A stretch of 64,000 nt of DNA from Escherichia phage JLBYU40: the sequence record NC_105514.1, one strand, 5' to 3'. The notes beneath the pieces are model-generated. The model worked only from the letters and a program-made list of their open reading frames with translations, searched no databases and had not been told where the DNA came from. The translations under genes were made by a program, and so were the position numbers. Below, in pieces: positions 741-25,244 of this stretch (positions are counted from its first letter, which is position 1; every line of letters begins with the position of its first letter).

Positions 741-862
741 GTTTGATTGTTTTCAGTGCAAGAGTCCGAGTCTTGGACACGACCGCTTCGCAAGTACATA
801 GGCGGCTTATCATGAGTCAGCACTTCCGAATTGCTAGCTTCGTGTTCTGCACTGAAATTTTG

Positions 863-1210: not shown

Positions 1211-1236
1211 AGCGTATTTCTCGTGCTAGTTTAGTT

Positions 1237-1313: not shown

Positions 1314-1322
1314 ATAATTCAT

Positions 1323-1508
1323 TTACTCAGCTTTGAGTTTTTCAATAGCTGCATTAAGTTCCTTAAGAAACTCTTTTCGTACATTAAGACGATTAAGACT
1401 TACTAGTATATCATGTTTAAGTTCTTCGATGTATTTCTTCTCAACTTCAATATTGTTGATAGTGCTATCACGATGAACTTCTAGCTGTGCAATTACGTTC
1501 TTGGACAT
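1323..1508 (-). CDS. hypothetical protein (61 aa)
   Basis: ORF track; helical, charged sequence. Confidence 0.4.
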   Translation of the reverse strand: MSKNVIAQLEVHRDSTINNIEVEKKYIEELKHDILVSLNRLNVRKEFLKELNAAIEKLKAE

Positions 1509-1610
1509 GCTTGTTTCCTCAGTTATTAATGAAAATGGTATCTGTGGCTGAATTCGATGTCAGCAATGATAGCTGGTTGGCTACCGGTTTACTTAACTCT
1601 ACACAGAATT

Positions 1611-1688
1611 TGGCGGTTCCTGCTGGATTCGAACCAGCAACCCTCAACTTAACAAGATGCCGCTCTAACCAATTAGAGCTAAGGAACC
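1611..1688 (-). tRNA. tRNA-Asn (GUU)
   Basis: Acceptor GGTTCCT/AGGAACC, D-stem GCTC/GAGC, anticodon loop TTGTTAA, T-arm GCTGG-TTCGAAT-CCAGC, CCA encoded; anticodon stem has two mismatches. Confidence 0.55.
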
Positions 1689-2183
1689 ATATAAGTCAGA
1701 ACTAGAGTTAATACGTTCTAGATATTTACTAAGATCTCTAGAATTTATACTAAACCACTCATGTTCTTTTAAATCTTTGAAATACTGGTGAATTAGTTTT
1801 TCACCTTTTCGTTTGTCAAACCAAAAAGACCAATGCTCTAACTTATAATCCCTATAAGGGGAATAAGTCTGATATTGAGCTAATCTCTCTTTTGGATTTT
1901 GACTCATACCTATTTTATACTGATTTTTCCATGCAGGATTACTAATACAGTATACAAAACCTTCAGAAATAGGAAGTTTATTTTCCTGCTTAAACTTTAT
2001 AAAGGAAAGTGCAGCAAGTTTTCTCGAATACATAGTATTTGTATTCTTTTTGGTATTACCATTGGTTCCTGAAAGATTTATATATTCTTCCATAAATCTT
2101 TGGATTAGTTCTGCGGTTATATAGAAGGGCTCATTAGTAACAATACCTTTCTTTACCAAACTATCAAAAACTCTTGTATGCAC
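1665..2183 (-). CDS. T5orf172-domain (GIY-YIG-like) protein
   Basis: 172-aa ORF; motif YKIGMSQNPKERLAQYQTYSPY resembles the T5orf172 / MUG113 domain; 3' end overlaps the tRNA-Asn gene. Confidence 0.5.
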   Translation of the reverse strand: MHTRVFDSLVKKGIVTNEPFYITAELIQRFMEEYINLSGTNGNTKKNTNTMYSRKLAALSFIKFKQENKLPISEGFVYCISNPAWKNQYKIGMSQNPKERLAQYQTYSPYRDYKLEHWSFWFDKRKGEKLIHQYFKDLKEHEWFSINSRDLSKYLERINSSSDLYGSLALIG

Positions 2184-2204
2184 TACTTCTTTCCTTTAGT
2201 AATT

Positions 2205-2280
2205 TGGACGACCGCATGAGATTTGAACTCACATAAAAAGGATTTGCAATCCTTCGCCTAAGCCATTCAGCCAACGGTCG
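2205..2280 (-). tRNA. tRNA-Cys (GCA)
   Basis: Acceptor CGACCGT/GCGGTCG, anticodon arm AAGGA-TTGCAAA-TCCTT, T-loop TTCAAAT, CCA encoded. Confidence 0.65.
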
Positions 2281-2328
2281 GTTTATCTTGTTCTGTCATG
2301 TTGCTTCTCCAGTTCAATTTATGTAATT

Positions 2329-2357
2329 ATTATACAGAACTTTTGGAAACTAAGCAA
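2329..2357 (-). promoter_or_regulatory. sigma70-type promoter (-35 TTGCTT, 17 bp, -10 TATAAT)
   Basis: Plus-strand attata 2329-2334 and aagcaa 2352-2357; conserved cassette. Confidence 0.6.
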
Positions 2358-2627
2358 CTACATTTTTAAGAATTTGATGCCTTTCTTTTTCTTCTTATAT
2401 TTCCACGTTAATGGATTCTGCCGATTGTGAACGCTTGAGATCTTCGTCTCGTCAAAGTTCTTCAATATCATGTAATCACAAGATAATTGTTCTAATGGAA
2501 TGTGATCACCGTCAAAAGCATATACATAAGGCTGTTGACTAACACGATAATGATAGACTTTGTTAATTCTACGTTTTAGCGACTTATCAGCGCAGTAAAT
2601 AAAGAAGTTTTCAGGATGCATCAGCAT
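2358..2627 (-). CDS. hypothetical protein (89 aa)
   Basis: ORF track. Confidence 0.4.
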   Translation of the reverse strand: MLMHPENFFIYCADKSLKRRINKVYHYRVSQQPYVYAFDGDHIPLEQLSCDYMILKNFDETKISSVHNRQNPLTWKYKKKKKGIKFLKM

Positions 2628-2641
2628 CTCCTTCGATTTGG

Positions 2642-2713
2642 TGCACCCTGTTCGTATCGAACGAACCTCTCAAGCTCTTCAGGCAAGCGCTAATCCATCT
2701 CAGCTAAAGGTGC
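2642..2713 (-). tRNA. probable tRNA-Phe (GAA)
   Basis: Acceptor GCACCTT/AGGGTGC, D-stem GCTG/TAGC, anticodon loop CTGAAGA, T-arm GTTCG-TTCGATA-CGAAC; anticodon stem weak (two U.U). Confidence 0.4.
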
Positions 2714-2719
2714 AAATTT

Positions 2720-2796
2720 TGGCAAACCTACTAGGACTCGAACCTAGACCGTACGGTTTTGGAGACCGACATGCTGTCCAGTAACACTCTAGGAAT
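2720..2796 (-). tRNA. possible tRNA-Trp (CCA)
   Basis: T-arm CTAGG-TTCGAGT-CCTAG with encoded CCA, anticodon loop CTCCAAA; acceptor pairing imperfect, 5' boundary uncertain. Confidence 0.35.
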
Positions 2797-2804
2797 GCAG
2801 AAAT

Positions 2805-2881
2805 TGGCGTCCTGTGCGGGGATCGAACCCGCAAATCCTACCTTGAAAGGGTAGTGACTTTACCAGTTTGTCTAACAGGAC
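2805..2881 (-). tRNA. tRNA-Glu (UUC)
   Basis: Acceptor GTCCTGT/ACAGGAC, anticodon arm CTACC-CTTTCAA-GGTAG, T-arm GCGGG-TTCGATC-CCCGC, CCA encoded. Confidence 0.7.
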
Positions 2882-2888
2882 TTAAATT

Positions 2889-2979
2889 TGGTGTTGGATG
2901 ATGGAGTCGAACCACCCGAGACCCTTCCGAGTCGGCAGATTTACAGTCTGCTTCGCTACCTCTACGATACTAATCCAAC
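2889..2979 (-). tRNA. tRNA-Tyr (GUA), long variable arm
   Basis: Acceptor GTTGGAT/ATCCAAC, anticodon arm GCAGA-CTGTAAA-TCTGC, about 18-nt variable arm, T-loop TTCGACT, CCA encoded. Confidence 0.65.
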
Positions 2980-3042
2980 ATATTTAAAAGTATTCAAATA
3001 CTAGTTTAAACACTTTTAAATATGTTTCCGAATTAGATAACT

Positions 3043-3071
3043 ATTATATCAAGTTTTAAGGCACTGAGCAA
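3043..3071 (-). promoter_or_regulatory. sigma70-type promoter driving the tRNA operon (-35 TTGCTC, -10 TATAAT)
   Basis: Plus-strand attata 3043-3048 and gagcaa 3066-3071, 17-bp spacer. Confidence 0.5.
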
Positions 3072-3107
3072 GTCAAATTTTAAAGAACTTGCTCAGTGCT
3101 GTATTAG

Positions 3108-3383
3108 TTAGTCGAACTTAGGAGTGACAGTTAAGGAGAACGGAAGTTCGAAAACTTCTTCGCCCTCATTACTAACGGTAACTACACGACCTTTAAGTTC
3201 AGACATTAAAATATCAATATCAGCTTTTGCATCTGGAGCCATGCCAGCTTCAATACATTTAGCTTTAACTTCCGGTAAAAGCTCTACGTTATAGAGATAG
3301 AGCCACTCAATCTCACCTTCCCAGTCTTCCCAGGATTTGCAGATTGCACTTTCAATACCAGTTGCTACAACACGATTTTGCAT
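3108..3383 (-). CDS. hypothetical protein (91 aa)
   Basis: ORF track. Confidence 0.45.
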   Translation of the reverse strand: MQNRVVATGIESAICKSWEDWEGEIEWLYLYNVELLPEVKAKCIEAGMAPDAKADIDILMSELKGRVVTVSNEGEEVFELPFSLTVTPKFD

Positions 3384-3413
3384 TAATTAACTCCTTCATC
3401 AATTTATATAACT

Positions 3414-3443
3414 ATTATACCAGAAATTTAAAGTAAAAGGCAA
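3414..3443 (-). promoter_or_regulatory. sigma70-type promoter (-35 TTGCCT, -10 TATAAT)
   Basis: Plus-strand attata 3414-3419 and aggcaa 3438-3443, 18-bp spacer. Confidence 0.45.
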
Positions 3444-3473
3444 GTACATTTTTAAAAATTCTGTTTGGAGGAG

Positions 3474-3680
3474 CTAAACTCCAGATTTTTCGGCCAAGTC
3501 TAGACTAATAAGAGTTATAGCCATAATTGCTGCACCGTGTTCTTTTTCTCCGGTGTTTTTAGCAGAGTCTATAATATCCTTAATCTGTTCGTAATAACTT
3601 TTTACTTCTTGTTCAATGCCTGCCTCGGCTATCATGCCTTTAGCCATGAATCGTTGCATGGTAATTTCAGGATTAGCCAT
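3474..3680 (-). CDS. hypothetical protein (68 aa)
   Basis: ORF track; start overlaps stop of upstream small ORF (ATGGCTAA). Confidence 0.4.
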   Translation of the reverse strand: MANPEITMQRFMAKGMIAEAGIEQEVKSYYEQIKDIIDSAKNTGEKEHGAAIMAITLISLDLAEKSGV

Positions 3681-3840
3681 GTTGTTTCTCCAGTTTCATT
3701 TTTAATAGTTTACAGATGAAATCAACGTCTTCATCTGTGCCTAAGTCTCTATCCTCAAGGGTCGCCTTGAAGTTTTTCGTCAATTCCATGAGGATGACTT
3801 CCCTAGAACGACGTGTTGGCGGAGGTGGATGTCTATACAT
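3673..3840 (-). CDS. hypothetical small protein (about 55 aa)
   Basis: Hand-read ORF (MYRHPPPPTRRS...) with SD AAGGAAA upstream of ATG at 3840; stop overlaps next start. Confidence 0.35.
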   Translation of the reverse strand: MYRHPPPPTRRSREVILMELTKNFKATLEDRDLGTDEDVDFICKLLKMKLEKQHG

Positions 3841-3855
3841 CTTATTTCCTTAATT

Positions 3856-3932
3856 TGGTAGGGGTGGTGGGATTCGAACCCACAAAACCTGAATTTTAAG
3901 TCCAGTACCTATGCCAATTCGATTACACCCCC
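3856..3932 (-). tRNA. tRNA with UAA anticodon but short variable arm (identity uncertain)
   Basis: Acceptor GGGGGTG/CACCCCT, anticodon arm CTGGA-CTTAAAA-TTCAG, T-arm GTGGG-TTCGAAT-CCCAC, CCA encoded; D-arm poorly paired. Confidence 0.45.
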
Positions 3933-3939
3933 GTGTAAT

Positions 3940-4128
3940 TTAGTCAATTACTTTTGAAGCTTCAAGGTAGTCGATATAGTGTACGTTTTCTACCGTAATC
4001 ATATAATCTGCCACTTTATCCATAGCTTGGGCTTCAGAGGTAGCTCTGGCTAACCTATATCCTTTTTTATATTCATCAGAGTATTCTCTATCTTGAATAA
4101 ACACAACATAAACTACGTATAATTCCAC
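3940..4128 (-). CDS. hypothetical protein (about 62 aa; GTG start inferred)
   Basis: The 111-aa ORF in the track runs into tRNA genes; AGGGGG then GTG at about 4128 gives a tRNA-free CDS. Confidence 0.3.
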   Translation of the reverse strand: MELYVVYVVFIQDREYSDEYKKGYRLARATSEAQAMDKVADYMITVENVHYIDYLEASKVID

Positions 4129-4150
4129 TTGTAACCCCCTAATTAAGTTG

Positions 4151-4225
4151 GTGGCTCCCCGAGGATTCGAACCTACGTACCTTCCGGTTATGAGCCGGGT
4201 GCTCATACCATATGAGCTTGAGAAC
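4151..4225 (-). tRNA. tRNA with CAU anticodon (Met or Ile2)
   Basis: Acceptor GGTTCTC/GGGAGCC, D-stem GCTC/GAGC, anticodon arm CCCGG-CTCATAA-CCGGA, T-loop TTCGAAT; no encoded CCA. Confidence 0.5.
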
Positions 4226-4231
4226 CAAAAT

Positions 4232-4320
4232 CTGGCGGAAGAAGTGGGAATCGAACCCACAAGGCTATATTTCAAACCGACAGATTAGCAATCTGCTGCA
4301 ATACCGTTATGCTATTCTTC
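4232..4320 (-). tRNA. tRNA-Ser (GCU), long variable arm
   Basis: Acceptor GGAAGAA/TTCTTCC, anticodon arm GCAGA-TTGCTAA-TCTGT, long variable arm, T-arm GTGGG-TTCGATT-CCCAC, CCA encoded. Confidence 0.65.
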
Positions 4321-4342
4321 CGAATTTATAAGATATATTATA

Positions 4343-4864
4343 TTAGAAATTTAGCTTCATAGCAAGAAAATTTTTCAAGTTTTCGGTAGACATCTCATCT
4401 ACATCTACAGGAGAAACAAAGCCGTTTAATTTTCTAGCAAATTTTTCACCATCGGGATCATTGTCTCCAACAGCTACCAATTTAAAAGGTAGTAATTTCA
4501 GTTGCTTTAATAACGCTTTTCCTGGAGAAGAACCCAACATTGCTAGGGCTGGATAACCAGCGTTATGTAACGCAACTGCCTTAAATACAGATTCAGCAAT
4601 CAATACTACTTTTTCATCTCCATTGAGAGTTTCTAGTCCCCATACACACTGGGTAGTAGAATAAGTAAAGTATTTAGCTTCAAAGGGGCACTTACCATGA
4701 CCTTTTGGAGCAGAAGGATTATAAGTTTGATAGCCCCTCAACATCCCAGAGAAGTCATACAACGGGACTGTTAGCCATCCTTCTGGACTTAACCAGCAAT
4801 GATATTTATCTGTATCAAATCCCCTAGATAAGAGGTGCTGTGTTAGCTCATCAACATTCATATT
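4343..4864 (-). CDS. Toprim-like domain protein (hypothetical)
   Basis: Motifs IAESVFK and LVAVGDNDPDGEKFARKL resemble a Toprim acidic patch; start moved to MNVDEL. Confidence 0.4.
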   Translation of the reverse strand, partial: NMNVDELTQHLLSRGFDTDKYHCWLSPEGWLTVPLYDFSGMLRGYQTYNPSAPKGHGKCPFEAKYFTYSTTQCVWGLETLNGDEKVVLIAESVFKAVALHNAGYPALAMLGSSPGKALLKQLKLLPFKLVAVGDNDPDGEKFARKLNGFVSPVDVDEMSTENLKNFLAMKLNF

Positions 4865-4891
4865 TGGTTCCTCTCTCAAATTTATAGATAT

Positions 4892-4920
4892 ATTATACAG
4901 AGAATTTAGCATTCAAGCAA
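4892..4920 (-). promoter_or_regulatory. sigma70-type promoter (-35 TTGCTT, 17 bp, -10 TATAAT)
   Basis: Plus-strand attata 4892-4897, aagcaa 4915-4920. Confidence 0.6.
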
Positions 4921-5036
4921 TCAAATTTTTTAACTTTTTAGAGGAAAATCATAGGGCGCTTAAGGGTAACAGATAAGTGGTGAGGACCAAAATTTGTGAC
5001 CCCACTAAAAATCCGGGGGCAATTTTTAAAGACCCC

Positions 5037-5065
5037 TTGACATTTTCGCTGGGGTAGTGTAAAGT
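5037..5065 (+). promoter_or_regulatory. sigma70-type promoter (-35 TTGACA, about 17 bp, -10 TAAAGT)
   Basis: ttgaca at 5037-5042; TAAAGT/TATAT-like -10 about 17 bp downstream; followed by SD AGGAGG. Confidence 0.5.
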
Positions 5066-5127
5066 ATATGTTATGGATGAGTGATCAAAGAGACACACAT
5101 TTTCTATATACTAGGAGGTGTCAAAAA

Positions 5128-6114
5128 ATGACAGAAGAAGTAGCTAAGAGTCCTGAGACCGTCGCTAGCGTTGCAGCAGAACTGCACCGTCACGAGGAAT
5201 CAGATAAGAAAAAGTGGGAGAAGGTCAGAGCCTACGAAGAAAAACATCGTGAACACGATGATGAAGAAGATGACGATGATGAACATTGTCATAAATATGG
5301 AAAACATAAAATGCAAGAACCAGTAAACGTATTCACTAGTGGCTTCCCTGGCCTACTGGGTGGTTACCCAGCAAACGCAGGTGCTTTCGGTGGTGAAGGT
5401 ATGGGACTATTCGGAGCTATCCTAATCGGTGCTCTATTAACAGGTGGATTCGGTGGTTTCGGTGGATTCGGTGGACGTGGTGTAGTTGGTGAAGGTACCG
5501 CAGTTGATGCAGTACTTCAGAACCAAGATACCGCTAGTATTCTAGCAGCTATTAACACTACTCGTACAGAAGCTAATCAGGGTACTGGGGCTGTGTTAAG
5601 CGCAGTTAACAATGGTTTTAGCCAGACATCCCAAAACCAGAGCCGTGATACTCAGTCTGTACTAACTACGATTTATGGTACAGGTGCTAATCTGTCTAAT
5701 CAGATCTGCCAGGAAACTCGCAACGTTATTCAGGGTCAGTTCGATCTTTCTCGCCAGATTGATCAATCTTTCGCAGCTAACCAGATAGCTCGTGCACAAG
5801 ATAAATTTGATTCTGCACAGATCGCTTTCCAGCAGACTTTACAAACTAATAACCAGTTTGCCGCTGTTCAGGCTCAGATGTGTGCTAACCAGAACTCTCT
5901 GGAACGTCAGATCGCTGAATGTTGCTGTGAACTTCAGACTGCGATCGCTGGTGTAACTACTGCGCGTATCCAGGATGAGTTAGATGCATGTCGCCTACGT
6001 GAGGCAATCGCTGCGGGTAATGGTGCTAACGATCAGGTAATTAATCAAATCGCTGTAAGTCTTGGTGCAATCACTCAGACTCTGGCTGGTCTGCAGGCTA
6101 AACTGCCGGCTTAA
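5128..6114 (+). CDS. hypothetical protein: acidic/His-rich N-terminus, Gly-zipper hydrophobic segment, long Gln/Asn/Ala-rich helical region
   Basis: ATG 5128 after AGGAGG; GFGGFGGFGG and GAILIGALLTGG; codons biased to highly expressed E. coli-like usage. Confidence 0.6.
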   Translation: MTEEVAKSPETVASVAAELHRHEESDKKKWEKVRAYEEKHREHDDEEDDDDEHCHKYGKHKMQEPVNVFTSGFPGLLGGYPANAGAFGGEGMGLFGAILIGALLTGGFGGFGGFGGRGVVGEGTAVDAVLQNQDTASILAAINTTRTEANQGTGAVLSAVNNGFSQTSQNQSRDTQSVLTTIYGTGANLSNQICQETRNVIQGQFDLSRQIDQSFAANQIARAQDKFDSAQIAFQQTLQTNNQFAAVQAQMCANQNSLERQIAECCCELQTAIAGVTTARIQDELDACRLREAIAAGNGANDQVINQIAVSLGAITQTLAGLQAKLPA

Positions 6115-6135
6115 TATTAAGGGGAGGAGCCCATT

Positions 6136-6552
6136 ATGAGTAAATATGGTTTTGTAAATAACGGACTTAATCAAAGTATGGGCTCCCAGCAGCCCATTCC
6201 GGGTCTGGATAACCCCTACTTACAACAATTGCAACAGCGTTTAGCAGAAGCGCAACAGATGCAGCAACAACTCCAGCAAAACCCTGGAAGTGTGAGTCCT
6301 ATGCAAATGATGCAGCAAATGAGCGGGCAGTCGCAAATGCCTCAACAAATGCAGCAACAGGTGCCTCAGCAGCAAGTTCAGCAACAAACCCAACAACCGC
6401 AGGTTTCTGCGGAAGGACAGGCAGTACTAGCCCTTTTCGAAGACTTCGCAAAGACAGAGGATGGGAAACAGCTTGTATCACTTATGGGTAAGTTTAATAG
6501 CTTCTGCCAAAGCCAGGTTGCAAAAGCTCAAAATAGTGGTAATAACTCCTAA
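6136..6552 (+). CDS. hypothetical Gln-rich protein (138 aa)
   Basis: ORF with SD GGGGAGGAG upstream; about 35% Gln in the central region. Confidence 0.5.
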   Translation: MSKYGFVNNGLNQSMGSQQPIPGLDNPYLQQLQQRLAEAQQMQQQLQQNPGSVSPMQMMQQMSGQSQMPQQMQQQVPQQQVQQQTQQPQVSAEGQAVLALFEDFAKTEDGKQLVSLMGKFNSFCQSQVAKAQNSGNNS

Positions 6553-6561
6553 GGAGGAATT

Positions 6562-6756
6562 ATGTGTTGCAGAAAATCTGTTTCGTGCTGCCCAATGCCT
6601 GTAGCACGTTGTTGCTCTCCAGCAATGTTTACGCAAATACCGGCGTTCAATCCGTTTGCCTTTAAGCCTACTCTTATCCTGCCCCCTAGAGTAGATTTTC
6701 AGTCAAGATTGGCCTCCCGTATGGGTAGTTGCTGTAACAAGAGTATATGGTTCTAA
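6562..6756 (+). CDS. hypothetical Cys-rich small protein (64 aa, four CC doublets)
   Basis: Strong SD AAGGAGGA 5 nt before ATG; 8 Cys arranged as CC pairs. Confidence 0.4.
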   Translation: MCCRKSVSCCPMPVARCCSPAMFTQIPAFNPFAFKPTLILPPRVDFQSRLASRMGSCCNKSIWF

Positions 6757-6772
6757 GGAACCAAACAATAAA

Positions 6773-6806
6773 GCCCCTAGTCGAAAGACTTAGGGGCTTT
6801 TCTTTT
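6773..6806 (+). terminator. rho-independent terminator
   Basis: GCCCCTA/TAGGGGC stem followed by TTTTCTTTT. Confidence 0.6.
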
Positions 6807-6816
6807 ATCTTAAATA

Positions 6817-6851
6817 CAGAAAAGCCCTGCGCTCTCTAGGAAACGCAGGGC
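6817..6851 (-). terminator. rho-independent terminator for the convergent minus-strand gene
   Basis: GCCCTGCG/CGCAGGGC 8-bp stem; U-tract on minus strand (plus-strand agaaaa). Confidence 0.55.
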
Positions 6852-6876
6852 TTATTTCAGATGTTACATGCGGGTA

Positions 6877-7824
6877 TTATTTATTACGCATATCCATAAT
6901 CATTTGGCCATCATAGCCAGTGCCAACCACAGTCTGCGGTACACCACCTTGGTATTTCTGAGCACGAATCATTTCAACTTCCAGTTGCTTCCAGCGAATC
7001 ATCTCAGGAGTAATGGTACGTTGCAATGCGGCGTTAGCTTCAGCTTCTTTCTTAGCTGCATATAGTTTAGCATCTGCGTCACGTTCATTGGCAATAGCTT
7101 GGTTGTTGCGAGCTTCACGGTCTGCTTCTGCTTGTTTAACTTTTTGCTGTGCTTCCTGTTCAACGCGAGCCAGTTCAGCTTTCGCAGCATTAACTTGCTC
7201 TTCACGAACTTTGGTATTCTGTACCTGTTCCATGATTACCGGTGGCAAAGTAATATCCTGAAGGAATACCTGCTTAACTGTATAACCATATGGGCGTGCA
7301 TACTCTTCAACTTCCTGTTGAATTGCAGTTTGCAATTGAGCCTGAATTTTAGCATCAAACAAATCTTGTGCTTTAGGTACAGACTTACCAAACTCACGAA
7401 TAGTAGACAGTAATTTTTCAGTTACATACTTGTCTAGTGCCTGATCCTGAGTACCTGCGTTAATACGGTTAATTGGTGCCTTAGAACCATCAAACTGCAA
7501 CATAACAGTCAGGTCAACAGTGGATTTAAACTTATCCTGGCTAGGAACCTGAAGTTTATCTAATTTTACAGCAATATCTTTTGTACTAAAAGTGTCGAAA
7601 GATGCAAATGGGTTTACAAGATGGAAACCTGGTAATACTGGGTTAGGATCTACTTTACCCAGAAATGTTTGGGTTTTAACCGTACCATCAGAAACAATAG
7701 TATATGAATTAAAAGCTAGGATTAAACCTGCTAAACCAACTACAGCACCAATACCCCAACGTTTAATAGTACGAATTACTTTCTGCTCAGAAGTCAGTTC
7801 TTTCATATTTTTAGTATTAAACAT
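6877..7824 (-). CDS. SPFH / band-7 (prohibitin/HflK-like) membrane protein
   Basis: N-terminal TM helix (GIGAVVGLAGLILAF), then SPFH-like core and Ala/Glu/Gln-rich coiled coil. Confidence 0.6.
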   Translation of the reverse strand: MFNTKNMKELTSEQKVIRTIKRWGIGAVVGLAGLILAFNSYTIVSDGTVKTQTFLGKVDPNPVLPGFHLVNPFASFDTFSTKDIAVKLDKLQVPSQDKFKSTVDLTVMLQFDGSKAPINRINAGTQDQALDKYVTEKLLSTIREFGKSVPKAQDLFDAKIQAQLQTAIQQEVEEYARPYGYTVKQVFLQDITLPPVIMEQVQNTKVREEQVNAAKAELARVEQEAQQKVKQAEADREARNNQAIANERDADAKLYAAKKEAEANAALQRTITPEMIRWKQLEVEMIRAQKYQGGVPQTVVGTGYDGQMIMDMRNK

Positions 7825-7858
7825 ATATTTCCTTTGTTTTAGTTACAGTTAATAAAAT

Positions 7859-7933
7859 TGGCCGAGGTGACAGGATTCGAACCTGCATAAAGGAATTTAG
7901 AAGACTCCTGCCTCTCCCTTAGACTACACCCCG
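7859..7933 (-). tRNA. tRNA-Arg (UCU)
   Basis: Acceptor CGGGGTG/CACCTCG, anticodon arm GGAGT-CTTCTAA-ATTCC, T-arm GCAGG-TTCGAAT-CCTGT, CCA encoded. Confidence 0.65.
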
Positions 7934-8433: not shown

Positions 8434-8508
8434 CTTACCGACCGTAGGATTCGAACCTACATCTTCCACCAGTTACGGCTTGATAATACCAATTATACTA
8501 GGACGGCA
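8434..8508 (-). ncRNA. unresolved tRNA-like element
   Basis: T-arm GTAGG-TTCGAAT-CCTAC and partial acceptor pairing, but no canonical anticodon arm found. Confidence 0.25.
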
Positions 8509-8730: not shown

Positions 8731-8759
8731 ATTATACAGAATTTATAAGCATTTAGCAA
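8731..8759 (-). promoter_or_regulatory. sigma70-type promoter (-35 TTGCTA, 17 bp, -10 TATAAT)
   Basis: Plus-strand attata 8731-8736, tagcaa 8754-8759; points into the 800-nt non-coding stretch. Confidence 0.6.
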
Positions 8760-8767
8760 ATGAATTT

Positions 8768-9202
8768 TTAGAAAAATTCACTAGCGATCAAAGCAGTTGT
8801 TTTACCGTCATAACGTCCAGGAAATTCTGCCTTAATAGTTTTCATTAATAGAGCTTTGGTAATACCTGGGTTTAATTTAACCAGTTCTGCAAAATACTCA
8901 CGAATTTCAGTTTCAGTCAGTTGACTTGGCTGATACTCTTGCAGCATGGAATAAAGCAGTTGCTCATAGTCTACATCAGTAGGAACTTTCGTACCAACTT
9001 TAATAGCGCGCTGCTTTGCATTTTCTAGAGCCTTAATCTGAGCTTTCAGATAGGCTACAAACTCGGTTCGAGTAACAATGTCTTTATCAATACGTTGCAG
9101 GTCGCCAATCATGGTCTGAAGATTAAGTGCCCGCTCTTTATCACCGTGAGTACGTGCTAGACTAAGCAGTCCACGAAGGGTCATTAGGATATTTTCACCC
9201 AT
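8768..9202 (-). CDS. hypothetical protein (144 aa)
   Basis: ORF track; start overlaps stop of upstream small ORF. Confidence 0.5.
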   Translation of the reverse strand: MGENILMTLRGLLSLARTHGDKERALNLQTMIGDLQRIDKDIVTRTEFVAYLKAQIKALENAKQRAIKVGTKVPTDVDYEQLLYSMLQEYQPSQLTETEIREYFAELVKLNPGITKALLMKTIKAEFPGRYDGKTTALIASEFF

Positions 9203-9370
9203 TATTTCATCCCCAATGCTTGGTTAAAAGATTGTTCTGTCATAACTGCTGAGACTTTGGCGAAATCAAACTTTTTAGGGTTCGTAGTGATTTCAGCAAC
9301 GTTAGAAGTTTTAACAGTTTTCGTAGTACGAATACCGCGAGTGTTAACACCAATAATTACAACTGATTTC
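9202..9370 (-). CDS. hypothetical small protein (about 56 aa)
   Basis: Hand-read ORF MKSVVIIGVNTRGIRTT... with SD GAGGAAG; stop overlaps next ATG. Confidence 0.35.
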
Positions 9371-9403
9371 ATATTTCGCTTCCTCTCATTAATTTATGAA
9401 AGT

Positions 9404-9440: not shown

Positions 9441-9908
9441 TTAAGTTTTAGTGACAACAGGTTTATAAAACGTATGTCCCTTAATCTTAGTTGTTTTCTT
9501 AAACTTCTTTGTCCAGTAAGGTTTATCTTTACCACTATGGAAGTATAGTGCTCCATGTGTAGGATCTTGTGGTAAATCAACGTAGTATATCACTCTAGCT
9601 AAATTCTTAGCGGTTTGCCAAGCCTCATCAGTTTTATCAACTTTTGGTCTCTTAGATACCCAAGAGAACTGGTTAGACTGATATACTACTTTACAGTAGG
9701 AATCTGGGAATTTACCGGAGTTTACACGGTTTTTAGTAACATGTGCAATCGCCGTCATTCCCTTTATGCCCTCACCACGACTTTCGAAATAGATATTTTT
9801 AGCAATGCAATCTATTTCTTTTGCATCGTGCGATGCCTGACTACTAAAGCTGAAGGTAAGGGCAGCTACTAAAAGCAAAGCTGCCTTCATTCTTTTTACT
9901 ACTGCCAA
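9441..9908 (-). CDS. secreted cell-wall hydrolase, SleB-like (Hydrolase_2 family)
   Basis: N-terminal signal peptide (MKAALLLVAALTFSFSSQA); motifs resembling SleB-type cell wall hydrolases. Confidence 0.5.
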   Translation of the reverse strand: MAVVKRMKAALLLVAALTFSFSSQASHDAKEIDCIAKNIYFESRGEGIKGMTAIAHVTKNRVNSGKFPDSYCKVVYQSNQFSWVSKRPKVDKTDEAWQTAKNLARVIYYVDLPQDPTHGALYFHSGKDKPYWTKKFKKTTKIKGHTFYKPVVTKT

Positions 9909-10213
9909 TCATATTCAACACGATTGGGATTTTCTTTATACCCTAAGTCAAGCAAATCATTACGCATATTTTGCTTAGCTACTGGGTTCGAGGTTACTAG
10001 TACCACTTTCTTTGGTCTCTGCCCAAATTCTAAGAGTAAACGAAGAATTTGATAACCTTCCATACCATCTACAGCCAAGTCATTATCCATATAAACGAAA
10101 TGGCCTGTGGTATCAGTTTTATTCAGAAACTCTACAGCGGCTTCTGGGGTTCGAATGATAATGTCCATTCCGTGAAGATTGCGCACGTCATCAATCAAAA
10201 TATGAAAAGTCAT
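9899..10213 (-). CDS. stand-alone CheY-like receiver-domain protein (putative)
   Basis: ILIDD near N-terminus, central YMDNDLAVDGMEG, VVLVTSN, later Lys: pattern of response-regulator receiver domains. Confidence 0.4.
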   Translation of the reverse strand: MTFHILIDDVRNLHGMDIIIRTPEAAVEFLNKTDTTGHFVYMDNDLAVDGMEGYQILRLLLEFGQRPKKVVLVTSNPVAKQNMRNDLLDLGYKENPNRVEYDWQ

Positions 10214-10243
10214 AATAGCCTCGTTTCATCAATTTAAAAATAT

Positions 10244-10272
10244 ATTATACACATAATTTAGTAAATTAGCAA
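10244..10272 (-). promoter_or_regulatory. sigma70-type promoter (-35 TTGCTA, 17 bp, -10 TATAAT)
   Basis: Plus-strand attata 10244-10249, tagcaa 10267-10272. Confidence 0.6.
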
Positions 10273-10655
10273 ATACATTTTTAAATTGTGAAACTAGTAA
10301 ACCGATAAACAGCCTAGAGGCGCCACAGGCCATATCTTATGAGCCATGTACCTTTGATCTAGGGTTTGAATCATCAATGAATACTTTGCATCTTTTAGCT
10401 TTAGAAGTTTAGAAGTTTGAGTTCTTTAAACTTTTCAGCTTTCATACTTAAATGTTGATCTTTGAAGTTGTGTCGGTAATATCAACGACGCTTTGTTTTT
10501 ACGTGTCAGATTAAATGTCTGATGTAATAAACATAATCTCCAATAGATTATACTTTATAGTATGGTCAGCGGTCTTATTTAACCTCGTATTTCAACCGCT
10601 GCTGCGAGGTAAGATGCTTGGGCTTTCGTCTACCGATTTACTAGCTTTTAAATTA

Positions 10656-11294
10656 TTACTCTACTTCAATGAAGGTAGAGGCGTTAGACTCGGACAGAAC
10701 AAAGTCAACATTTGTTGCAAAGTCCTGATATTCCTCGTCATGCTGTTTAATCAGCTTTTCCAGTTCCAGCGGATCAATCAAGAATGGGGTATTCTTGAGT
10801 TCCAGCAGGTTGAGCTGCATTTTAACTTCATCTTCGGAAGTTTTCTTATCGCGGGTAGCCATGCTATCCTGCAAACGCTCATATTTAGCATCAAACTGTG
10901 CTTTCTGCGTATTAAACTTAACCGTAGCGGCATGGAACTGCTTACGCATGTTAGCCAGCAGTTGGGCTTTAAGTTCCATAGAACGCTTAGCTTCAATTGC
11001 TTCCGCAACGGTCATCTTACGAGAGCCAATCTCAACGATTGTTTCAGCATTGCTTTTAATCAGAGCAGCTTTGATACGATCACGCTGGGACATCATATCC
11101 AGGAGAGATTGGAAATCTGCCTTAATACGAGCAGACAGATCGTCTACTTCGATTGCAGCGCCAACTACAACCTTATTTTTATCCTTACCTTCACCAACAG
11201 CGATCAGAAGCTGCTGTTCAGTAGCTTTACGGATTTTAGCTTCCAGAGATTTGATAGTTGCCAGAGCGCGGGTTTTAGAAATACGAGTAGTCAT
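10656..11294 (-). CDS. hypothetical protein (212 aa, helical)
   Basis: ORF track; the two long plus-strand ORFs over it are antisense artefacts. Confidence 0.55.
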   Translation of the reverse strand: MTTRISKTRALATIKSLEAKIRKATEQQLLIAVGEGKDKNKVVVGAAIEVDDLSARIKADFQSLLDMMSQRDRIKAALIKSNAETIVEIGSRKMTVAEAIEAKRSMELKAQLLANMRKQFHAATVKFNTQKAQFDAKYERLQDSMATRDKKTSEDEVKMQLNLLELKNTPFLIDPLELEKLIKQHDEEYQDFATNVDFVLSESNASTFIEVE

Positions 11295-11600: not shown

Positions 11601-12302
11601 TCAAATTTTCATTTTTTCGATCATAGCTGCAACACAATAGCTTTCAACTAAGGCATCAAATGCAGGATCATGCTTAACCGGATAGATCCCATAACGAATA
11701 GTGTCCATCTTCTCCATTTTAGCTATTGCCCAGCTAATAGCTTCGGTCTCTAGAGCCTTATAACTGTATCCAGCTTGCATCCAGAGATTACGAAGAGATC
11801 GAACATTACCCAAATTCCAGAATTTCCACGGAACTACCTCTTCATTGGTTCCAGCATGGAACGTGTTTGCAGAGTAGATAGTCATATCAAATTCTGGGCC
11901 ATTGCCATAATACAAAGCATTTTCGCCTAGAGCCAACTCCATAATATTTTGAGCCATAGAGAAGGCAGCATAGTTAGAGCCGAGCTTATTAGTACAGTGA
12001 TGTTTACCATTTTGGAAGGCAATCAGTTTTGGATTACGTTCCTTCATAGCTTCCATTATGTGAATAGCAGAGGGGCTATTTTTAGCTTGATCCATCCAGA
12101 ATGCTAGAGTAGATGCTGTAACTTTGGCACCAGAATTAAGCTGATCCTGCACATCCAAAGTAACAAATACTAAGTCAGGGTCTTTGTCAATCCCATGCAT
12201 AGCCACAAAAGCGAAAGAAGGCATTGCGATATGAGTAGTACCACAATCTCCTGGAGTTCCTAGAGATTCAATATCTAGCATACCAAATGGTTTTACTTTC
12301 AT
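11601..12302 (-). CDS. putative exonuclease (DEDD-like motif)
   Basis: N-terminal LDIESLGT resembles Exo I motif of DnaQ-like 3'-5' exonucleases; otherwise unassigned. Confidence 0.4.
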   Translation of the reverse strand: MKVKPFGMLDIESLGTPGDCGTTHIAMPSFAFVAMHGIDKDPDLVFVTLDVQDQLNSGAKVTASTLAFWMDQAKNSPSAIHIMEAMKERNPKLIAFQNGKHHCTNKLGSNYAAFSMAQNIMELALGENALYYGNGPEFDMTIYSANTFHAGTNEEVVPWKFWNLGNVRSLRNLWMQAGYSYKALETEAISWAIAKMEKMDTIRYGIYPVKHDPAFDALVESYCVAAMIEKMKI

Positions 12303-12608: not shown

Positions 12609-12824
12609 TCACTTGCCCAGCAGTTTAAGGATATTTTCCATAATAGTTTGGGCAGATTTTTCACTCTTGTTGGTTTCAGCCAACTTTAAAGCGAGTTCTT
12701 CCTGCTGTTTCTGAATATCCGCAGCAATTTTTTGATCAGCCTCAATACGAGCTTGAAGCTCATCAGTGATAGTGGTAAAGGAAGCAACGATTTCAGTAAC
12801 AGAACGTGGTTTCTTAGAGAACAT
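12609..12824 (-). CDS. hypothetical protein (71 aa)
   Basis: ORF track. Confidence 0.4.
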   Translation of the reverse strand: MFSKKPRSVTEIVASFTTITDELQARIEADQKIAADIQKQQEELALKLAETNKSEKSAQTIMENILKLLGK

Positions 12825-23583: not shown

Positions 23584-23746
23584 TCCAGAAAACATGCTTA
23601 TTGAGCAATGGAACTTTGGTTATAATGCTGGTGTAGCTACTTGTATTGCTAGATTGGATACGCTTATTAAGCAAGAAAAGGTACGCCCTGAGGAAGCAAT
23701 TTTACTCCAAAATATTATCGAAGGATTTAAGCAAGGAATCGTATAG
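23552..23746 (+). CDS. hypothetical protein (about 64 aa)
   Basis: Start at MDFLNQ after SD GGAGGAG; overlaps next gene start. Confidence 0.4.
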   Translation: MDFLNQNLKSNPENMLIEQWNFGYNAGVATCIARLDTLIKQEKVRPEEAILLQNIIEGFKQGIV

Positions 23747-24582
23747 TGCGTAGATTAGTTATTATTAGCGGTGCAGGTTTGAGTGTTGAAAGTGGTGTAC
23801 GAGCTTTTCGTACTGATACTGCTAGTGGTAAAGCATTGTGGGATGATTATGATCTAGAAGAAGTATGTAATATTCATGCCTTTCGTGGTAATTTTTATCA
23901 TAAAACCCATATGTTTTACAACAAACGTCGTGAAGAGCTAAAAACTGTTGAACCCAATCTTGCACATTTGCGTATTGGTGAATGGTATAAACAATATCCA
24001 GGTCAAGTAGTAAACTTGACTACCAACGTTGATGACCTTATTGAGCGTGCTGGCGTTCCACATAGTGACATTCTGCACATTCACGGATATTTAAAAGAGG
24101 TTGTTGTAGCTGATAGCTACAATAGTAGCAATAAACGGATTATTGATGTAGGGTATAATTCTATTGATCCAGATGATTATAAATGGGTTAAACCTAATGT
24201 AATCTTCTTTGGAGAACATGCTCCTGCATACGCAGAAATGTATAATGTTTTTGATGGTATTACCAGTCAAGATATGATCATTGTGGTTGGTTGCTCTAAT
24301 CAAGTAATTAACTTCTACTGGGAATTATTTCCTGTTCTTAATTTGACTGCTGCCAAACTAATGGTAGTTAACTACTATGATAGTGCCATAGCAGCAGAGC
24401 CAGGCTATCAAGGTATGACTCGTAGTGAGATGTACCAACTGGAAGATCGTGGTATTCCTTACTGGAGTAAAGGTGCAGTAGATGCTTTTAGTGACCCTGA
24501 TTTTATTGCTCGTGTGGAAGCCCATTTAGAGGGTAGACCTTATGTGCCGGAGAGAAGGGGAAACAGATATGTCCATAGTTAA
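23746..24582 (+). CDS. Sir2-family (sirtuin-like) NAD-dependent protein
   Basis: N-terminal ISGAGLSVESGVRAFR matches sirtuin NAD-binding motif GAGIS..SGIP.FR. Confidence 0.55.
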   Translation: MRRLVIISGAGLSVESGVRAFRTDTASGKALWDDYDLEEVCNIHAFRGNFYHKTHMFYNKRREELKTVEPNLAHLRIGEWYKQYPGQVVNLTTNVDDLIERAGVPHSDILHIHGYLKEVVVADSYNSSNKRIIDVGYNSIDPDDYKWVKPNVIFFGEHAPAYAEMYNVFDGITSQDMIIVVGCSNQVINFYWELFPVLNLTAAKLMVVNYYDSAIAAEPGYQGMTRSEMYQLEDRGIPYWSKGAVDAFSDPDFIARVEAHLEGRPYVPERRGNRYVHS

Positions 24583-24751
24583 ATCTGTTTATACACATCC
24601 CGATGATATATTTGTATGGGCGGACGGTAGTTGGTGCTATCGCTGTGAGCTGTGGGAAATGGACTATAAATCCGATGACTATGGTGTCATATATGTTGAT
24701 ACGGCTGAGTATGATACGTTCTTAGAAAGGAACAAAAATGGAAATAAGTAA
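24569..24751 (+). CDS. hypothetical protein (about 60 aa)
   Basis: Start at MSIVKSVY after SD; overlapping ORF-track entry trimmed. Confidence 0.35.
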   Translation: MSIVKSVYTHPDDIFVWADGSWCYRCELWEMDYKSDDYGVIYVDTAEYDTFLERNKNGNK

Positions 24752-25244
24752 TACTCCAATTATTTTTCTAGATATTGATGGGGTGCTCAATTCGAGCATC
24801 TCCCACCATCATGCGCCTGATCATGAAAAGATTTTCTTTGGAAGTGACTGGGTTTTCAAACCGCTTCTCAAGGCTTTTCAGGACTTTATTCGTCCTTCTC
24901 CGATAATGATTGTTGGAGTATCCTCATGGTTCCCTGTCAGGAATGAGATGGAGAACGTTCAGATTATGACCGGATTAGGTCTTATCGATCGTTTTCTTGG
25001 TACAACGGATTTTACTGGTGGTGGGCTATCTAGGGGTAATTCTGTTCTTCGCTTCGTTGAAAAGCATAAGCTCAAACATTGGTGTGTGCTGGATGATGCT
25101 GGTGCTATGATGTACCAGTATCCAACGGTTATAGTCAACGGTAGAACTGGAATAAATCTTCAAGATTTAAGAGCTGTTAGCTATATGCTAGAATTTAGCC
25201 CAGATCTTGAAATGTGTAAATCCTTACAACAATTTAAGGTGTAA
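24738..25244 (+). CDS. HAD-superfamily-like hydrolase (putative)
   Basis: N-terminal IIFLDIDGVLN resembles HAD motif I (DxDGV). Confidence 0.4.
   Translation: MEISNTPIIFLDIDGVLNSSISHHHAPDHEKIFFGSDWVFKPLLKAFQDFIRPSPIMIVGVSSWFPVRNEMENVQIMTGLGLIDRFLGTTDFTGGGLSRGNSVLRFVEKHKLKHWCVLDDAGAMMYQYPTVIVNGRTGINLQDLRAVSYMLEFSPDLEMCKSLQQFKV

What the first reader, a model, noticed from the sequence alone, without database searches (positions are those of the whole stretch)
9899..10213. Orphan CheY-like receiver-domain protein in a phage early operon
The 104-aa product carries the hallmarks of a two-component receiver domain (N-terminal acidic pair ILIDD, central Asp in YMDNDL, conserved Thr/Ser and Lys) with no output domain or cognate kinase nearby. 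A phage single-domain response regulator could act as a phosphate sink or decoy to rewire host signalling.
Basis: partly seen in the sequence, partly recalled or inferred. Interest (0 to 1): 0.5.

Follow-up and report, generated by a model that had tools for sequence, protein, structure and literature searches.

The report
T5-type cREC receiver-fold protein
This is gene T5.084 of a T5-like phage: a small protein with the fold of a bacterial signalling 'receiver' domain that belongs to an already described but untested phage family (cREC), predicted to trim phosphate ends on damaged RNA or ADP-ribose rather than to act as a signalling decoy.

Summary
The ORF is real: 9899-10213, minus strand, 104 aa, with a GAGG ribosome-binding site and its own promoter-like site. 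The window is a T5-like phage (Demerecviridae), and the gene is the orthologue of T5.084.

It is not a canonical CheY-type receiver:
- It scores 12.6 bits on PF00072, whose cut-off is 30.2.
- It lacks helix alpha-1, helix alpha-5 and the conserved Lys.
- It carries extra invariant residues: R11, R21, D45 (a D-x-D motif) and N76.

It passes PF20274 (cREC_REC, E 3.7e-15). Aravind's group defined this family in 2021-22. They report it is never linked to histidine kinases and predict a cyclic-phosphate phosphoesterase acting in RNA repair or NAD/ADP-ribose processing. No experiment has tested this.

I reproduced one link. In rV5-like phage Murica, cREC sits between an RnlA-type RNA ligase and a Sir2. 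That Sir2 is 56.5% identical to the Sir2 in this window, which lies next to an RNA-repair HAD phosphatase.

The decoy or phosphate-sink idea is unsupported. This is an already known kind of gene, so interest is low to moderate.

The parts
9899..10213 (-). CDS of the cREC protein, 104 aa, orthologue of T5.084 / YP_006912.1. Near-invariant residues: D8, D9, R11, D17, R21, D43, N/H44, D45, G53, P67, T/S74, N76, Y92.
10219..10222 (-). Shine-Dalgarno GAGG, five bases upstream of the ATG.
   Evidence: Read directly from the sequence. The minus strand reads AAACGAGGCTATTATG.
10244..10272 (-). Sigma-70-type promoter-like site, TTGCTA-17-TATAAT. It probably starts the transcription unit cREC, SleB-like hydrolase, DUF7616, YqeY-like.
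   Evidence: Consensus scan, 10 of 12 matches. The T5 record annotates a promoter at the equivalent place, 43067-43141. Function is inferred, not shown.
9441..9890 (-). Downstream gene, 8 bases after the cREC stop: SleB-type cell-wall hydrolase (Hydrolase_2) with an N-terminal signal-like segment. Orthologue of T5.083. It is a neighbour; a functional link is unproven.
   Evidence: PF07486 E 2.2e-25. The adjacency is broken by inserts in phages Ace and KKP_3711 and is absent in My1.
23746..24582 (+). Sir2-family protein, a putative pathway partner. It is 13.5 kb away on the other strand.
   Evidence: PF02146 E 8.3e-25. It is 56.5% identical to the Sir2 of phage Murica, which sits directly after a cREC gene and an RnlA-type ligase. 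Partnership is inferred.
24738..25244 (+). HAD_SAK_2 phosphatase ('Swiss Army Knife' RNA-repair HAD), a putative pathway partner.
   Evidence: PF18143 E 1.5e-19. The Sir2 + HAD-SAK neighbourhood of T5-like phage SP15 is described in PMC9503650. Partnership is inferred.

Best explanation
The gene encodes the T5.084-type member of the cREC family (PF20274). This is a stand-alone, stripped-down receiver-fold protein, expressed early from its own promoter. It most likely works as a small aspartate-based phosphoesterase, not as a signalling module.

Proposed chemistry (inferred, not shown):
- D43, at the end of strand 3, corresponds to the phospho-acceptor Asp of receivers. It attacks a phosphate ester.
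- D45, two residues on, completes a D-x-D pair like motif I of HAD phosphatases. It serves as the general acid/base.
- D8 and D9 hold a metal ion or orient water.
- R11, R21, T74 and N76 bind the phosphoryl oxygens in place of the receiver Lys.

Proposed substrate (inferred from gene context and the literature): a cyclic phosphate. This would be either the 2',3'-cyclic phosphate end left on tRNA/RNA by host metal-independent nucleases, or the ADP-ribose 1'',2''-cyclic phosphate produced when a 2'-phosphate is removed using NAD+.

In T5-like phages the protein would belong to a dispersed RNA-end clean-up kit: cREC, Sir2 and the HAD_SAK_2 phosphatase, possibly with the Rv2179c-like 3'-5' exoribonuclease. 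This kit would protect the translation apparatus alongside the phage's large tRNA set.

Shown: family membership, the fold, the conserved residues, and the ligase-cREC-Sir2 operon in another phage. Inferred: catalysis, substrate and biological role.
For: Membership:
- PF20274 56.8 bits against a cut-off of 27.
- All 59 relatives but one carry PF20274, and UniRef/NCBI already name them 'cyclic-phosphate processing receiver domain-containing protein'.
- BFVD structural hits are other phage cREC proteins.

Fold:
- AF2 pLDDT 94.8, pTM 0.86.

Active-site-like conservation across 184 diverse members: D8, D9, R11, R21, D43, D45, T/S74 and N76 are each conserved in at least 181 of 184. This is a denser polar constellation than a signalling receiver has. 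It includes a D-x-D pair as in HAD phosphatases (established knowledge: in HAD enzymes the Asp+2 residue is the general acid/base).

Context:
- In rV5-like phage Murica the order is RNA_lig_T4_1, then cREC_REC (E 2e-14), then SIR2. An AAA_33 kinase and a Metallophos gene are divergently transcribed, and a tRNA cluster lies next door.
- That Sir2 is 56.5% identical to the one in this window, which sits beside HAD_SAK_2.
- In metagenomic phage L018, RtcB lies two genes downstream of cREC.
- In KVP40-like phages, cREC lies upstream of DUF2828/DUF7788 and an RNaseH-like DUF458 protein.
- Here the gene borders the 12-tRNA region and lies 1.4 kb from an Rv2179c-like exoribonuclease.

Literature: the family definition and prediction come from PMC7824862 and PMC9503650.

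Conditional role: the T5.084 knock-down is 'Not Fit' in E. coli DH10b (5 guides, p 0.88). So are Sir2 (T5.102) and T5.105. This fits an accessory, host-dependent function.
Against: - No cREC protein has been assayed or solved. PMC9503650 says so, and there is no PDB relative.
- In T5-like phages cREC is not adjacent to Sir2/HAD. It is 13.5 kb away on the opposite strand. These phages show no RNA ligase or polynucleotide kinase in the regions examined, so a complete repair pathway is not evident.
- Its immediate neighbours do not suggest RNA repair: a SleB-type wall hydrolase, DUF7616 and a weak YqeY-like protein.
- A census of 140 ORFs around cREC in 12 unrelated viral contigs found no single recurrent partner. 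RNA-related genes appear only as singletons.
- Which Asp is the nucleophile is unresolved. The strand end and the hydrophobic pattern point to D43. The low-confidence sequence alignment to CheY registers D45.
- I had no model coordinates, so active-site geometry was not checked.
Confidence: 0.55

Rival explanations
1. The protein is an orphan single-domain response regulator. Host histidine kinases, phosphotransfer proteins or acetyl phosphate phosphorylate it, and it acts as a phosphate sink or decoy that rewires host two-component signalling.
For: Receiver-like fold. The acidic pair, an Asp at the end of strand 3 and a Thr at the end of strand 4 are conserved, so an acyl-phosphate could form. 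The gene is early-expressed and single-domain.
Against: - PF00072 scores 12.6 bits, below the 30.2 cut-off.
- Only 8 residues separate D9 from strand 2, so helix alpha-1 cannot exist in any family member. Alpha-1 is the principal kinase/Hpt docking surface in solved kinase-receiver complexes (established knowledge).
- There is no helix alpha-5 and no conserved Lys.
- The family is reported never to be linked to histidine kinases (PMC7824862).
- The extra invariant residues R11, R21, D45 and N76 look enzymatic.
- The protein is conserved across phages of Escherichia, Salmonella, Pectobacterium and Vibrio. No shared kinase target is evident among these hosts.
Confidence: 0.05
2. The protein is an anti-defence enzyme that destroys nucleotide immune signals rather than repairing RNA. 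Candidate signals are cyclic oligonucleotides or their 2',3'>P-terminated products, cyclic mononucleotides, and ADP-ribose-derived signals of Thoeris- or TIR-type systems.
For: It shares the predicted phosphoesterase chemistry of the main model. The authors of the family raise cADPr or cyclic-nucleotide processing as one option. The gene is dispensable in a defence-poor lab host. The family is phage-restricted and lies in early accessory regions full of small genes.
Against: The gene is near-universal in T5-like phages and syntenic, unlike typical patchy anti-defence cargo. The clearest operon link is to an RNA ligase and Sir2, not to known signal sponges or nucleases. There is no PADLOC-related hit. 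The glycosidic cADPR isomers are not phosphoester substrates.
Confidence: 0.15
3. The protein is a nucleotide-pool phosphatase or nucleotidase. It would serve the deoxynucleotide-metabolism genes of the same early region: ribonucleotide reductase, dihydrofolate reductase, thymidylate synthase.
For: It shares a strand and region with nrdAB, frd and thy. In phage My1 it lies two genes after RNase H in that block. The D-x-D chemistry resembles HAD nucleotidases.
Against: It has its own promoter and is separated from that block by several unrelated genes. In other phage lineages it is not linked to nucleotide metabolism in any recurrent way. T5 already has a dedicated 5'-deoxyribonucleotidase, dmp (named in the CRISPRi-ART supplement).
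Confidence: 0.1
4. The protein is a non-catalytic pseudo-receiver. It would be a small phosphate- or ligand-binding adaptor that regulates a partner protein, for example the adjacent SleB-type hydrolase.
For: Tight spacing with the SleB-like gene, 8 bases. A Hydrolase_2 gene also abuts a cREC gene in the unrelated contig L015. Many receiver-fold proteins are non-enzymatic.
Against: Near-invariance of eight polar residues at the strand ends is typical of catalysis. The SleB adjacency is absent in My1 and interrupted in Ace and KKP_3711. The L015 cREC is frameshifted. SleB carries a signal-like N-terminus, so the two proteins would sit in different compartments.
Confidence: 0.1

Closest known systems
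cREC, the cyclic-phosphate processing Receiver domain (Pfam PF20274). Defined by Iyer, Anantharaman, Krishnan, Burroughs and Aravind in 2021 (PMC7824862) and treated further in PMC9503650.
   Same: It passes the family's curated threshold over the full model, positions 2-86 of 88. It is a stand-alone ~100-aa phage protein and shares the family's conserved Asp residues. It co-occurs in the genome with Sir2 and an RNA-repair HAD. Identical and near-identical sequences already carry this name in UniRef and NCBI.
   Different: Nothing structural. In T5-like phages the gene is not in an operon with a ligase, Sir2 or Nudix gene, as in the described neighbourhood types. It heads a unit with a SleB-type hydrolase, DUF7616 and a YqeY-like protein.
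Canonical two-component receiver domains (CheY, Spo0F; Pfam PF00072 Response_reg).
   Different: No helix alpha-1, no helix alpha-5 and no conserved Lys. Extra invariant residues R11, R21, D45 and N76. Below the PF00072 threshold. Foldseek gives only E 3e-3 and TM 0.57. No kinase partner.
HAD-superfamily phosphatases with the DxDxT motif, such as the 3'-phosphatase domain of T4 polynucleotide kinase-phosphatase and the HAD_SAK_2 protein in this window.
   Same: An invariant D-x-D pair at a strand end, suggesting an aspartyl-phosphate intermediate with an Asp+2 acid/base. The proposed role is healing RNA ends.
   Different: The D-x-D follows strand 3, not strand 1. There are no HAD squiggle, flap or cap elements. 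No HAD Pfam hit. This is resemblance in chemistry, not membership.
2H phosphoesterases (LigT/ThpR and the CPDase domain of tRNA ligases).
   Same: The predicted reaction, opening 2',3'- or 1'',2''-cyclic phosphates, and the same kinds of RNA-repair neighbourhoods (PMC9503650).
   Different: An unrelated fold and catalytic residues (two H-x-T/S motifs). The comparison is functional only.

Membership tests
cREC (PF20274) | Passes the curated Pfam gathering score over most of the model | tested here: met
   56.8 bits against 27, E 3.7e-15, protein residues 4-87 on profile positions 2-86 of 88.
cREC (PF20274) | Receiver-like Rossmannoid fold with conserved aspartates at the strand ends | tested here: met
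cREC (PF20274) | Never associated with a histidine kinase | tested here: met
   No kinase among 19 scanned proteins elsewhere in the window, in 40 kb of annotated SP15, or in the 25 families listed (of 36 matched) for the census of 140 neighbouring ORFs. One canonical receiver protein lies 2.6 kb from a cREC in L023.
cREC (PF20274) | Gene-neighbourhood link to RNA-repair or NAD/ADP-ribose enzymes | tested here: inconclusive
   Met in Murica, where the order is RnlA, cREC, Sir2, and in L018, where RtcB lies two genes away. In this window Sir2 and HAD_SAK_2 are in the same genome but 13.5 kb away on the other strand. The immediate neighbours are not RNA-repair genes.
cREC (PF20274) | Cyclic-phosphate phosphoesterase activity | not testable with these tools
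   A prediction only. The family is described as experimentally uncharacterised (PMC9503650).
Two-component receiver (PF00072, CheY-like) | Passes the PF00072 gathering score | tested here: not met
   12.6 bits against 30.2, E 0.16. CheY chains in the PDB give only E 0.3-1.
Two-component receiver (PF00072, CheY-like) | Complete (beta-alpha)5 fold, including alpha-1 and alpha-5 | tested here: not met
   DSSP of the model gives strand 4-7, loop, strand 18-20, helix 23-32, strand 39-42, helix 53-62, strand 69-72, helix 77-89 and a short hairpin. That is only three helices. The D9-to-strand-2 spacing is 8 residues or fewer across the family.
Two-component receiver (PF00072, CheY-like) | Acidic pair after strand 1 and phospho-acceptor Asp at the end of strand 3 | tested here: met
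   D8 and D9 follow strand 4-7. D43 follows strand 39-42. All are near-invariant. Caveat: the low-confidence hhalign alignment to CheY registers D45, not D43, with D57.
Two-component receiver (PF00072, CheY-like) | Conserved Thr/Ser at the end of strand 4 | tested here: met
   T/S74 in 183 of 184 members. It aligns with CheY T87.
Two-component receiver (PF00072, CheY-like) | Conserved Lys at the end of strand 5 | tested here: not met
   No conserved Lys column anywhere in 184 members. The C-terminal region conserves only G91 and Y92.
Two-component receiver (PF00072, CheY-like) | Phosphorylation by a histidine kinase or by small-molecule phosphodonors | not testable with these tools
   Needs phosphotransfer profiling or acetyl-phosphate / BeF3- assays.
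HAD phosphatases | DxDxT motif after strand 1, with squiggle/flap and motifs II-IV | tested here: not met

The most novel reading that the evidence does not exclude
cREC proteins may be a new class of phage counter-defence enzyme built on the receiver fold, destroying a host immune signal or toxic nucleotide such as a cyclic-phosphate-terminated oligonucleotide or an ADP-ribose-derived messenger. A rarer alternative is that they are genuine phospho-acceptors that drain a host phosphorelay. Either would make T5.084 the first receiver-fold anti-immune effector, and it is near-universal in T5-like phages.
Probability: 0.15. Interest if true: 0.75.

Novelty: already known. Interest (0 to 1): 0.27.

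Why it matters
It corrects an attractive but unsupported story, a phage response-regulator decoy, to an existing annotation: a cREC-family predicted phosphoesterase. The gene still has value as a target. It is the T5.084 orthologue, near-universal in a model phage group, small, confidently modelled and easy to express, and no cREC protein has ever been assayed. Showing its substrate would test a five-year-old prediction that the signalling receiver fold was recruited as an RNA-end or ADP-ribose-processing enzyme. It would also clarify how T5-like phages, which carry about 20 tRNAs, Sir2 and an RNA-repair HAD but no evident RNA ligase, cope with host tRNA-cleaving defences.

Tried and rejected
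- Sequence search of the PDB with the single protein gave only noise. De novo beta-trefoils scored E 0.02 and CheY scored E 0.3-1.
- A profile search of the PDB returned TAL-effector repeats at E 1.6e-8. This is an artefact: many weak repeats resembling the strand-4 motif 'PxxVVLVTSNPVG' are summed, and no single stretch passes.
- hhalign of the family profile against CheY was weak (probability 11%). It disagreed by two residues with the structural register.
- NCBIfam and PADLOC gave no hit for cREC.
- The AlphaFold-database Foldseek library was unavailable.
This collection therefore said nothing useful about bacterial distribution.
- Fused proteins from the 50%-cluster search showed no informative partner domain, apart from one HNH fusion.
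- The census of neighbours in 12 viral contigs found no dominant partner.
- A functional tie to the adjacent SleB-type hydrolase was considered and set aside. The adjacency is not kept in My1, is interrupted in Ace and KKP_3711, and its only outside recurrence involves a frameshifted cREC.

Full report
**Observation**

The window carries an ATG-initiated ORF on the minus strand at 9899..10213. It encodes 104 aa: MTFHILIDDVRNLHGMDIIIRTPEAAVEFLNKTDTTGHFVYMDNDLAVDGMEGYQILRLLLEFGQRPKKVVLVTSNPVAKQNMRNDLLDLGYKENPNRVEYDWQ. A GAGG Shine-Dalgarno sequence lies five bases upstream of the ATG, at 10219-10222 (sequence). A sigma-70-type site, TTGCTA-17-TATAAT, lies at 10272-10244. The stop codon is 8 bases from the ATG of the next gene at 9890. 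The plus-strand ORFs that overlap the gene are short (42-62 aa).

**Source and gene identity**

The window is a T5-like phage of the Demerecviridae.
- The 5-kb region around the gene is 97-98% identical to Salmonella phage Kenya-K17, Escherichia phages HK6 and BB1, and hundreds of other phages.
- Twelve tRNA genes lie just downstream, at 85-7933.
- In the T5 reference the gene is T5.084 (YP_006912.1), annotated 'hypothetical; similar to KVP40.0304', with a promoter annotated directly upstream. The T5 product is 96% identical to this one.
- tblastn finds the protein in 492 phage records, all annotated 'hypothetical'. These include essentially all T5-like phages, the distant Pectobacterium phage My1 (50%), and KVP40-like vibriophages (about 37%).

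**Family**

Pfam places the protein in PF20274, cREC_REC ('Cyclic-phosphate processing Receiver domain'). The score is 56.8 bits against a cut-off of 27, E 3.7e-15, covering almost the whole model. The canonical receiver model PF00072 scores 12.6 bits against a cut-off of 30.2. PHROG 1479 (unknown function) matches at 3.9e-30.

All relatives but one found in the 5.8-billion-protein collection carry PF20274, and UniRef and NCBI already name some of them accordingly. An exhaustive profile search finds 4125 clusters at 50% identity. Nearly all are stand-alone proteins of about 100 aa.

**Structure**

AlphaFold2, run with a 36-sequence alignment, gives pLDDT 94.8 and pTM 0.86.
- Foldseek agrees but weakly: DesR receiver, E 3e-3, TM 0.57.
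- BFVD returns other phage cREC proteins.

The fold is a reduced receiver, however. DSSP gives strand 4-7, a 10-residue loop, strand 18-20, helix 23-32, strand 39-42, helix 53-62, strand 69-72, helix 77-89 and a short C-terminal hairpin. Helix alpha-1 and helix alpha-5 of the (beta-alpha)5 receiver are absent. The spacing between the acidic pair and strand 2 is too short for a helix in every family member.

**Conserved residues**

In 184 diverse members the near-invariant positions are:

| Residue | Conserved in |
|---|---|
| D8 | 182/184 |
| D9 | 181/184 |
| R11 | 182/184 |
| D17 | 159/184 |
| R21 | 183/184 |
| D43 | 183/184 |
| H/N44 | H 120, N 56 |
| D45 | 183/184 |
| G53 | 182/184 |
| P67 | 181/184 |
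| T/S74 | 183/184 |
| N76 | 181/184 |
| Y92 | 152/184 |

No Lys is conserved, so the fifth receiver hallmark is missing.

D43 sits at the C-terminal end of strand 3 after four hydrophobic residues, as D57 does in CheY. D45 is the 'D+2' position and N76 the 'T+2' position. A low-confidence hhalign alignment to CheY (probability 11%) instead registers D45 with D57, while matching T74 with T87. Both Asp residues are invariant, so a phospho-acceptor candidate exists either way. I could not resolve which one it is without coordinates.

**What is known about the family**

Only two papers in the searchable library discuss cREC.
- Iyer et al. 2021 (PMC7824862) defined it as a divergent receiver domain that is never found in histidine-kinase systems. 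It is linked instead to NAD+/ADP-ribose-processing and RNA-repair genes, including operonic links to several RNA ligase families. They proposed that it hydrolyses 2',3'-cyclic RNA ends or cyclic ADP-ribose derivatives.
- Iyer et al. 2022 (PMC9503650) restate this, note Nudix fusions and Sir2-centred neighbourhoods, and say explicitly that cREC is experimentally uncharacterised.

No solved structure exists. No paper in the library treats T5.084 specifically.

**Independent check of the context claim**

The window encodes a Sir2 protein (23746-24582, +) directly followed by a HAD_SAK_2 'Swiss Army Knife' RNA-repair phosphatase (24738-25244, +). This is the T5-like (SP15-type) neighbourhood described in PMC9503650. 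It lies 13.5 kb from cREC on the other strand.

The same Sir2 clade occurs in rV5-like phages at 56.5% identity. In phage Murica the gene order is:
1. RNA_lig_T4_1
2. cREC_REC (E 2e-14)
3. SIR2
4. a pyrophosphohydrolase (the record's own annotation; no Pfam hit)

A divergently transcribed AAA_33 kinase and a Metallophos phosphoesterase flank this set, and a tRNA cluster lies next to it.

Other contexts:
- In metagenomic phage contig L018, RtcB lies two genes downstream of cREC.
- KVP40-like phages have cREC upstream of DUF2828/DUF7788 and an RNaseH-like DUF458 protein.
- A census of 140 ORFs within 5 kb of cREC in 12 unrelated viral contigs showed no dominant partner. RtcB, an Rv2179c-like exoribonuclease, a PolyA_pol-type nucleotidyltransferase, Hydrolase_2 and an L7/L12-CTD protein each appear once. 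A second L7/L12-CTD neighbour occurs in L011, which was outside this census.

The RNA-repair association is therefore real but not universal. In T5-like phages the putative partners are dispersed.

**Local neighbourhood**

Downstream on the same strand lie:
- a SleB-type cell-wall hydrolase with a signal-like N-terminus (9441-9890)
- DUF7616 (9202-9372)
- a weak YqeY-like protein (8768-9202)
- the stable-RNA and tRNA region

Upstream, past a 440-bp gap, lie a 212-aa protein with no family hit and an Rv2179c-like 3'-5' exoribonuclease (11601-12302).

The position of cREC is not fixed. In My1 it lies two genes after RNase H. A homing endonuclease in Ace, or a small ORF in KKP_3711, separates it from the hydrolase.

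**Functional data**

In the CRISPRi-ART screen of T5 (PMC11879866, supplementary tables), T5.084 was targeted by 5 guides. Mean fitness was -4.20 and p was 0.88, scored 'Not Fit' in E. coli DH10b. Sir2 (T5.102) and T5.105 were also 'Not Fit'. One sentence of the supplementary text lists T5.084 among Fit genes. This contradicts the paper's own 17-gene list and its tables, so I follow the tables. Dispensability in a lab host fits a conditional, host-dependent role.

**Interpretation**

The best-supported reading is that this is an ordinary member of the cREC family: a minimal receiver-fold protein acting as a small Asp-based phosphoesterase. Three points are inference:
- The D43-x-D45 pair mimics HAD motif I, a nucleophile plus an Asp+2 acid/base.
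- D8 and D9 would bind a metal ion or water.
- R11, R21, T74 and N76 would hold the phosphoryl group where receivers use Lys.

The likely substrates are cyclic phosphates on cleaved tRNA/RNA or on ADP-ribose. The enzyme would act in a clean-up pathway with Sir2 and the HAD phosphatase. Membership has about 0.95 confidence. The specific mechanism has about 0.45.

The phosphate-sink or decoy model has no support. The protein lacks the kinase-docking helix alpha-1 and fails the receiver model. It also belongs to a family reported never to be linked to kinases.

Other rivals remain open at low probability: an immune-signal-degrading enzyme, a nucleotide-pool phosphatase, and a non-catalytic adaptor.

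**Verdict**

The feature is already known at the level of family and database annotation, although no one has tested its function.

Noticed in passing
window 8436-8507 (-): Rfam tRNA model match (35.5 bits, E 7.6e-5) that ARAGORN did not call. It lies in the stretch that the T5 record annotates as stable 'RNAX' of unknown function, and other records label it tRNA-OTHER/Undet.
   Followed up: partly
window 8731-8759 (-) and 10244-10272 (-): Two promoter-like sites with the same hexamers and spacing, TTGCTA-17-TATAAT. One precedes cREC and one precedes the RNAX/tRNA-like region. Both coincide with promoters annotated in T5.
   Followed up: partly
window 9441-9890 (-); L015 5578-5991: A SleB-type Hydrolase_2 with a signal-like N-terminus lies 8 bases after cREC. 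A Hydrolase_2 gene also directly precedes a frameshifted cREC in an unrelated 28-kb viral contig. T5 has a separate endolysin (my own knowledge, not checked here), so the role of this second wall hydrolase in the early region is unclear.
   Followed up: partly
L011 6306-6659; L014 2182-2736: In two phage contigs with no DNA similarity, whose cRECs are 36% identical, the gene immediately after cREC encodes a protein with a ribosomal L7/L12 C-terminal-domain motif.
   Followed up: partly
window 23746-26077 (+): A block of Sir2, a HAD_SAK_2 RNA-repair phosphatase and two paralogous DUF7415 proteins (142 and 130 aa), followed by an HNH endonuclease. In phage SP15 the HAD is annotated as a second 'Sir2'.
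   Followed up: partly
window 10656-11294, 11601-12302, 12609-12824 (-): Likely misannotations propagated in public records. The 212-aa protein with no Pfam hit is called 'tail fiber protein'. The Rv2179c-like 3'-5' exoribonuclease is called 'metallopeptidase'. A 71-aa ORF is called 'tail length tape-measure protein'.
   Followed up: no
window 4343-4912 (-): A Toprim-like 189-aa protein, annotated 'DNA primase' in other records. It weakly matches a PADLOC DRT 'RTasDnaG-like' model (E 1.1e-5). By size and position it appears to correspond to T5.076 (not tested by alignment), which is labelled 'anti-defense, Known, Semi-Fit' in the CRISPRi-ART table.
   Followed up: no
PMC11879866 supplementary text against its tables: An internal inconsistency. 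One sentence lists T5.084 and T5.090 as 'Fit', but the paper's 17-gene Fit list and its fitness tables score both as 'Not Fit'.
   Followed up: yes
L012 6314-6637; L023 8835-9284: One viral contig carries a tandem second cREC-like gene, detected by my own HMM at E 8e-6 but not by Pfam. Another encodes a canonical PF00072 receiver protein 2.6 kb from its cREC.
   Followed up: partly
cREC residues 64-83 (strand 4 and the start of the following helix): The motif 'PxxVVLVTSNPVGxxNM' resembles the TAL-effector repeat 'LTPxQVVAIASNxGGKQALE'. The resemblance is strong enough to produce spurious summed HMM hits to TALE structures at E 1.6e-8.
   Followed up: yes
window 10214-10655: A 440-bp non-coding gap upstream of cREC. 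The equivalent neighbourhood is a site of mobile insertions in relatives: a homing endonuclease in Ace, and an 'HNH endonuclease' annotated over the cREC match in Kenya-K44.
   Followed up: no
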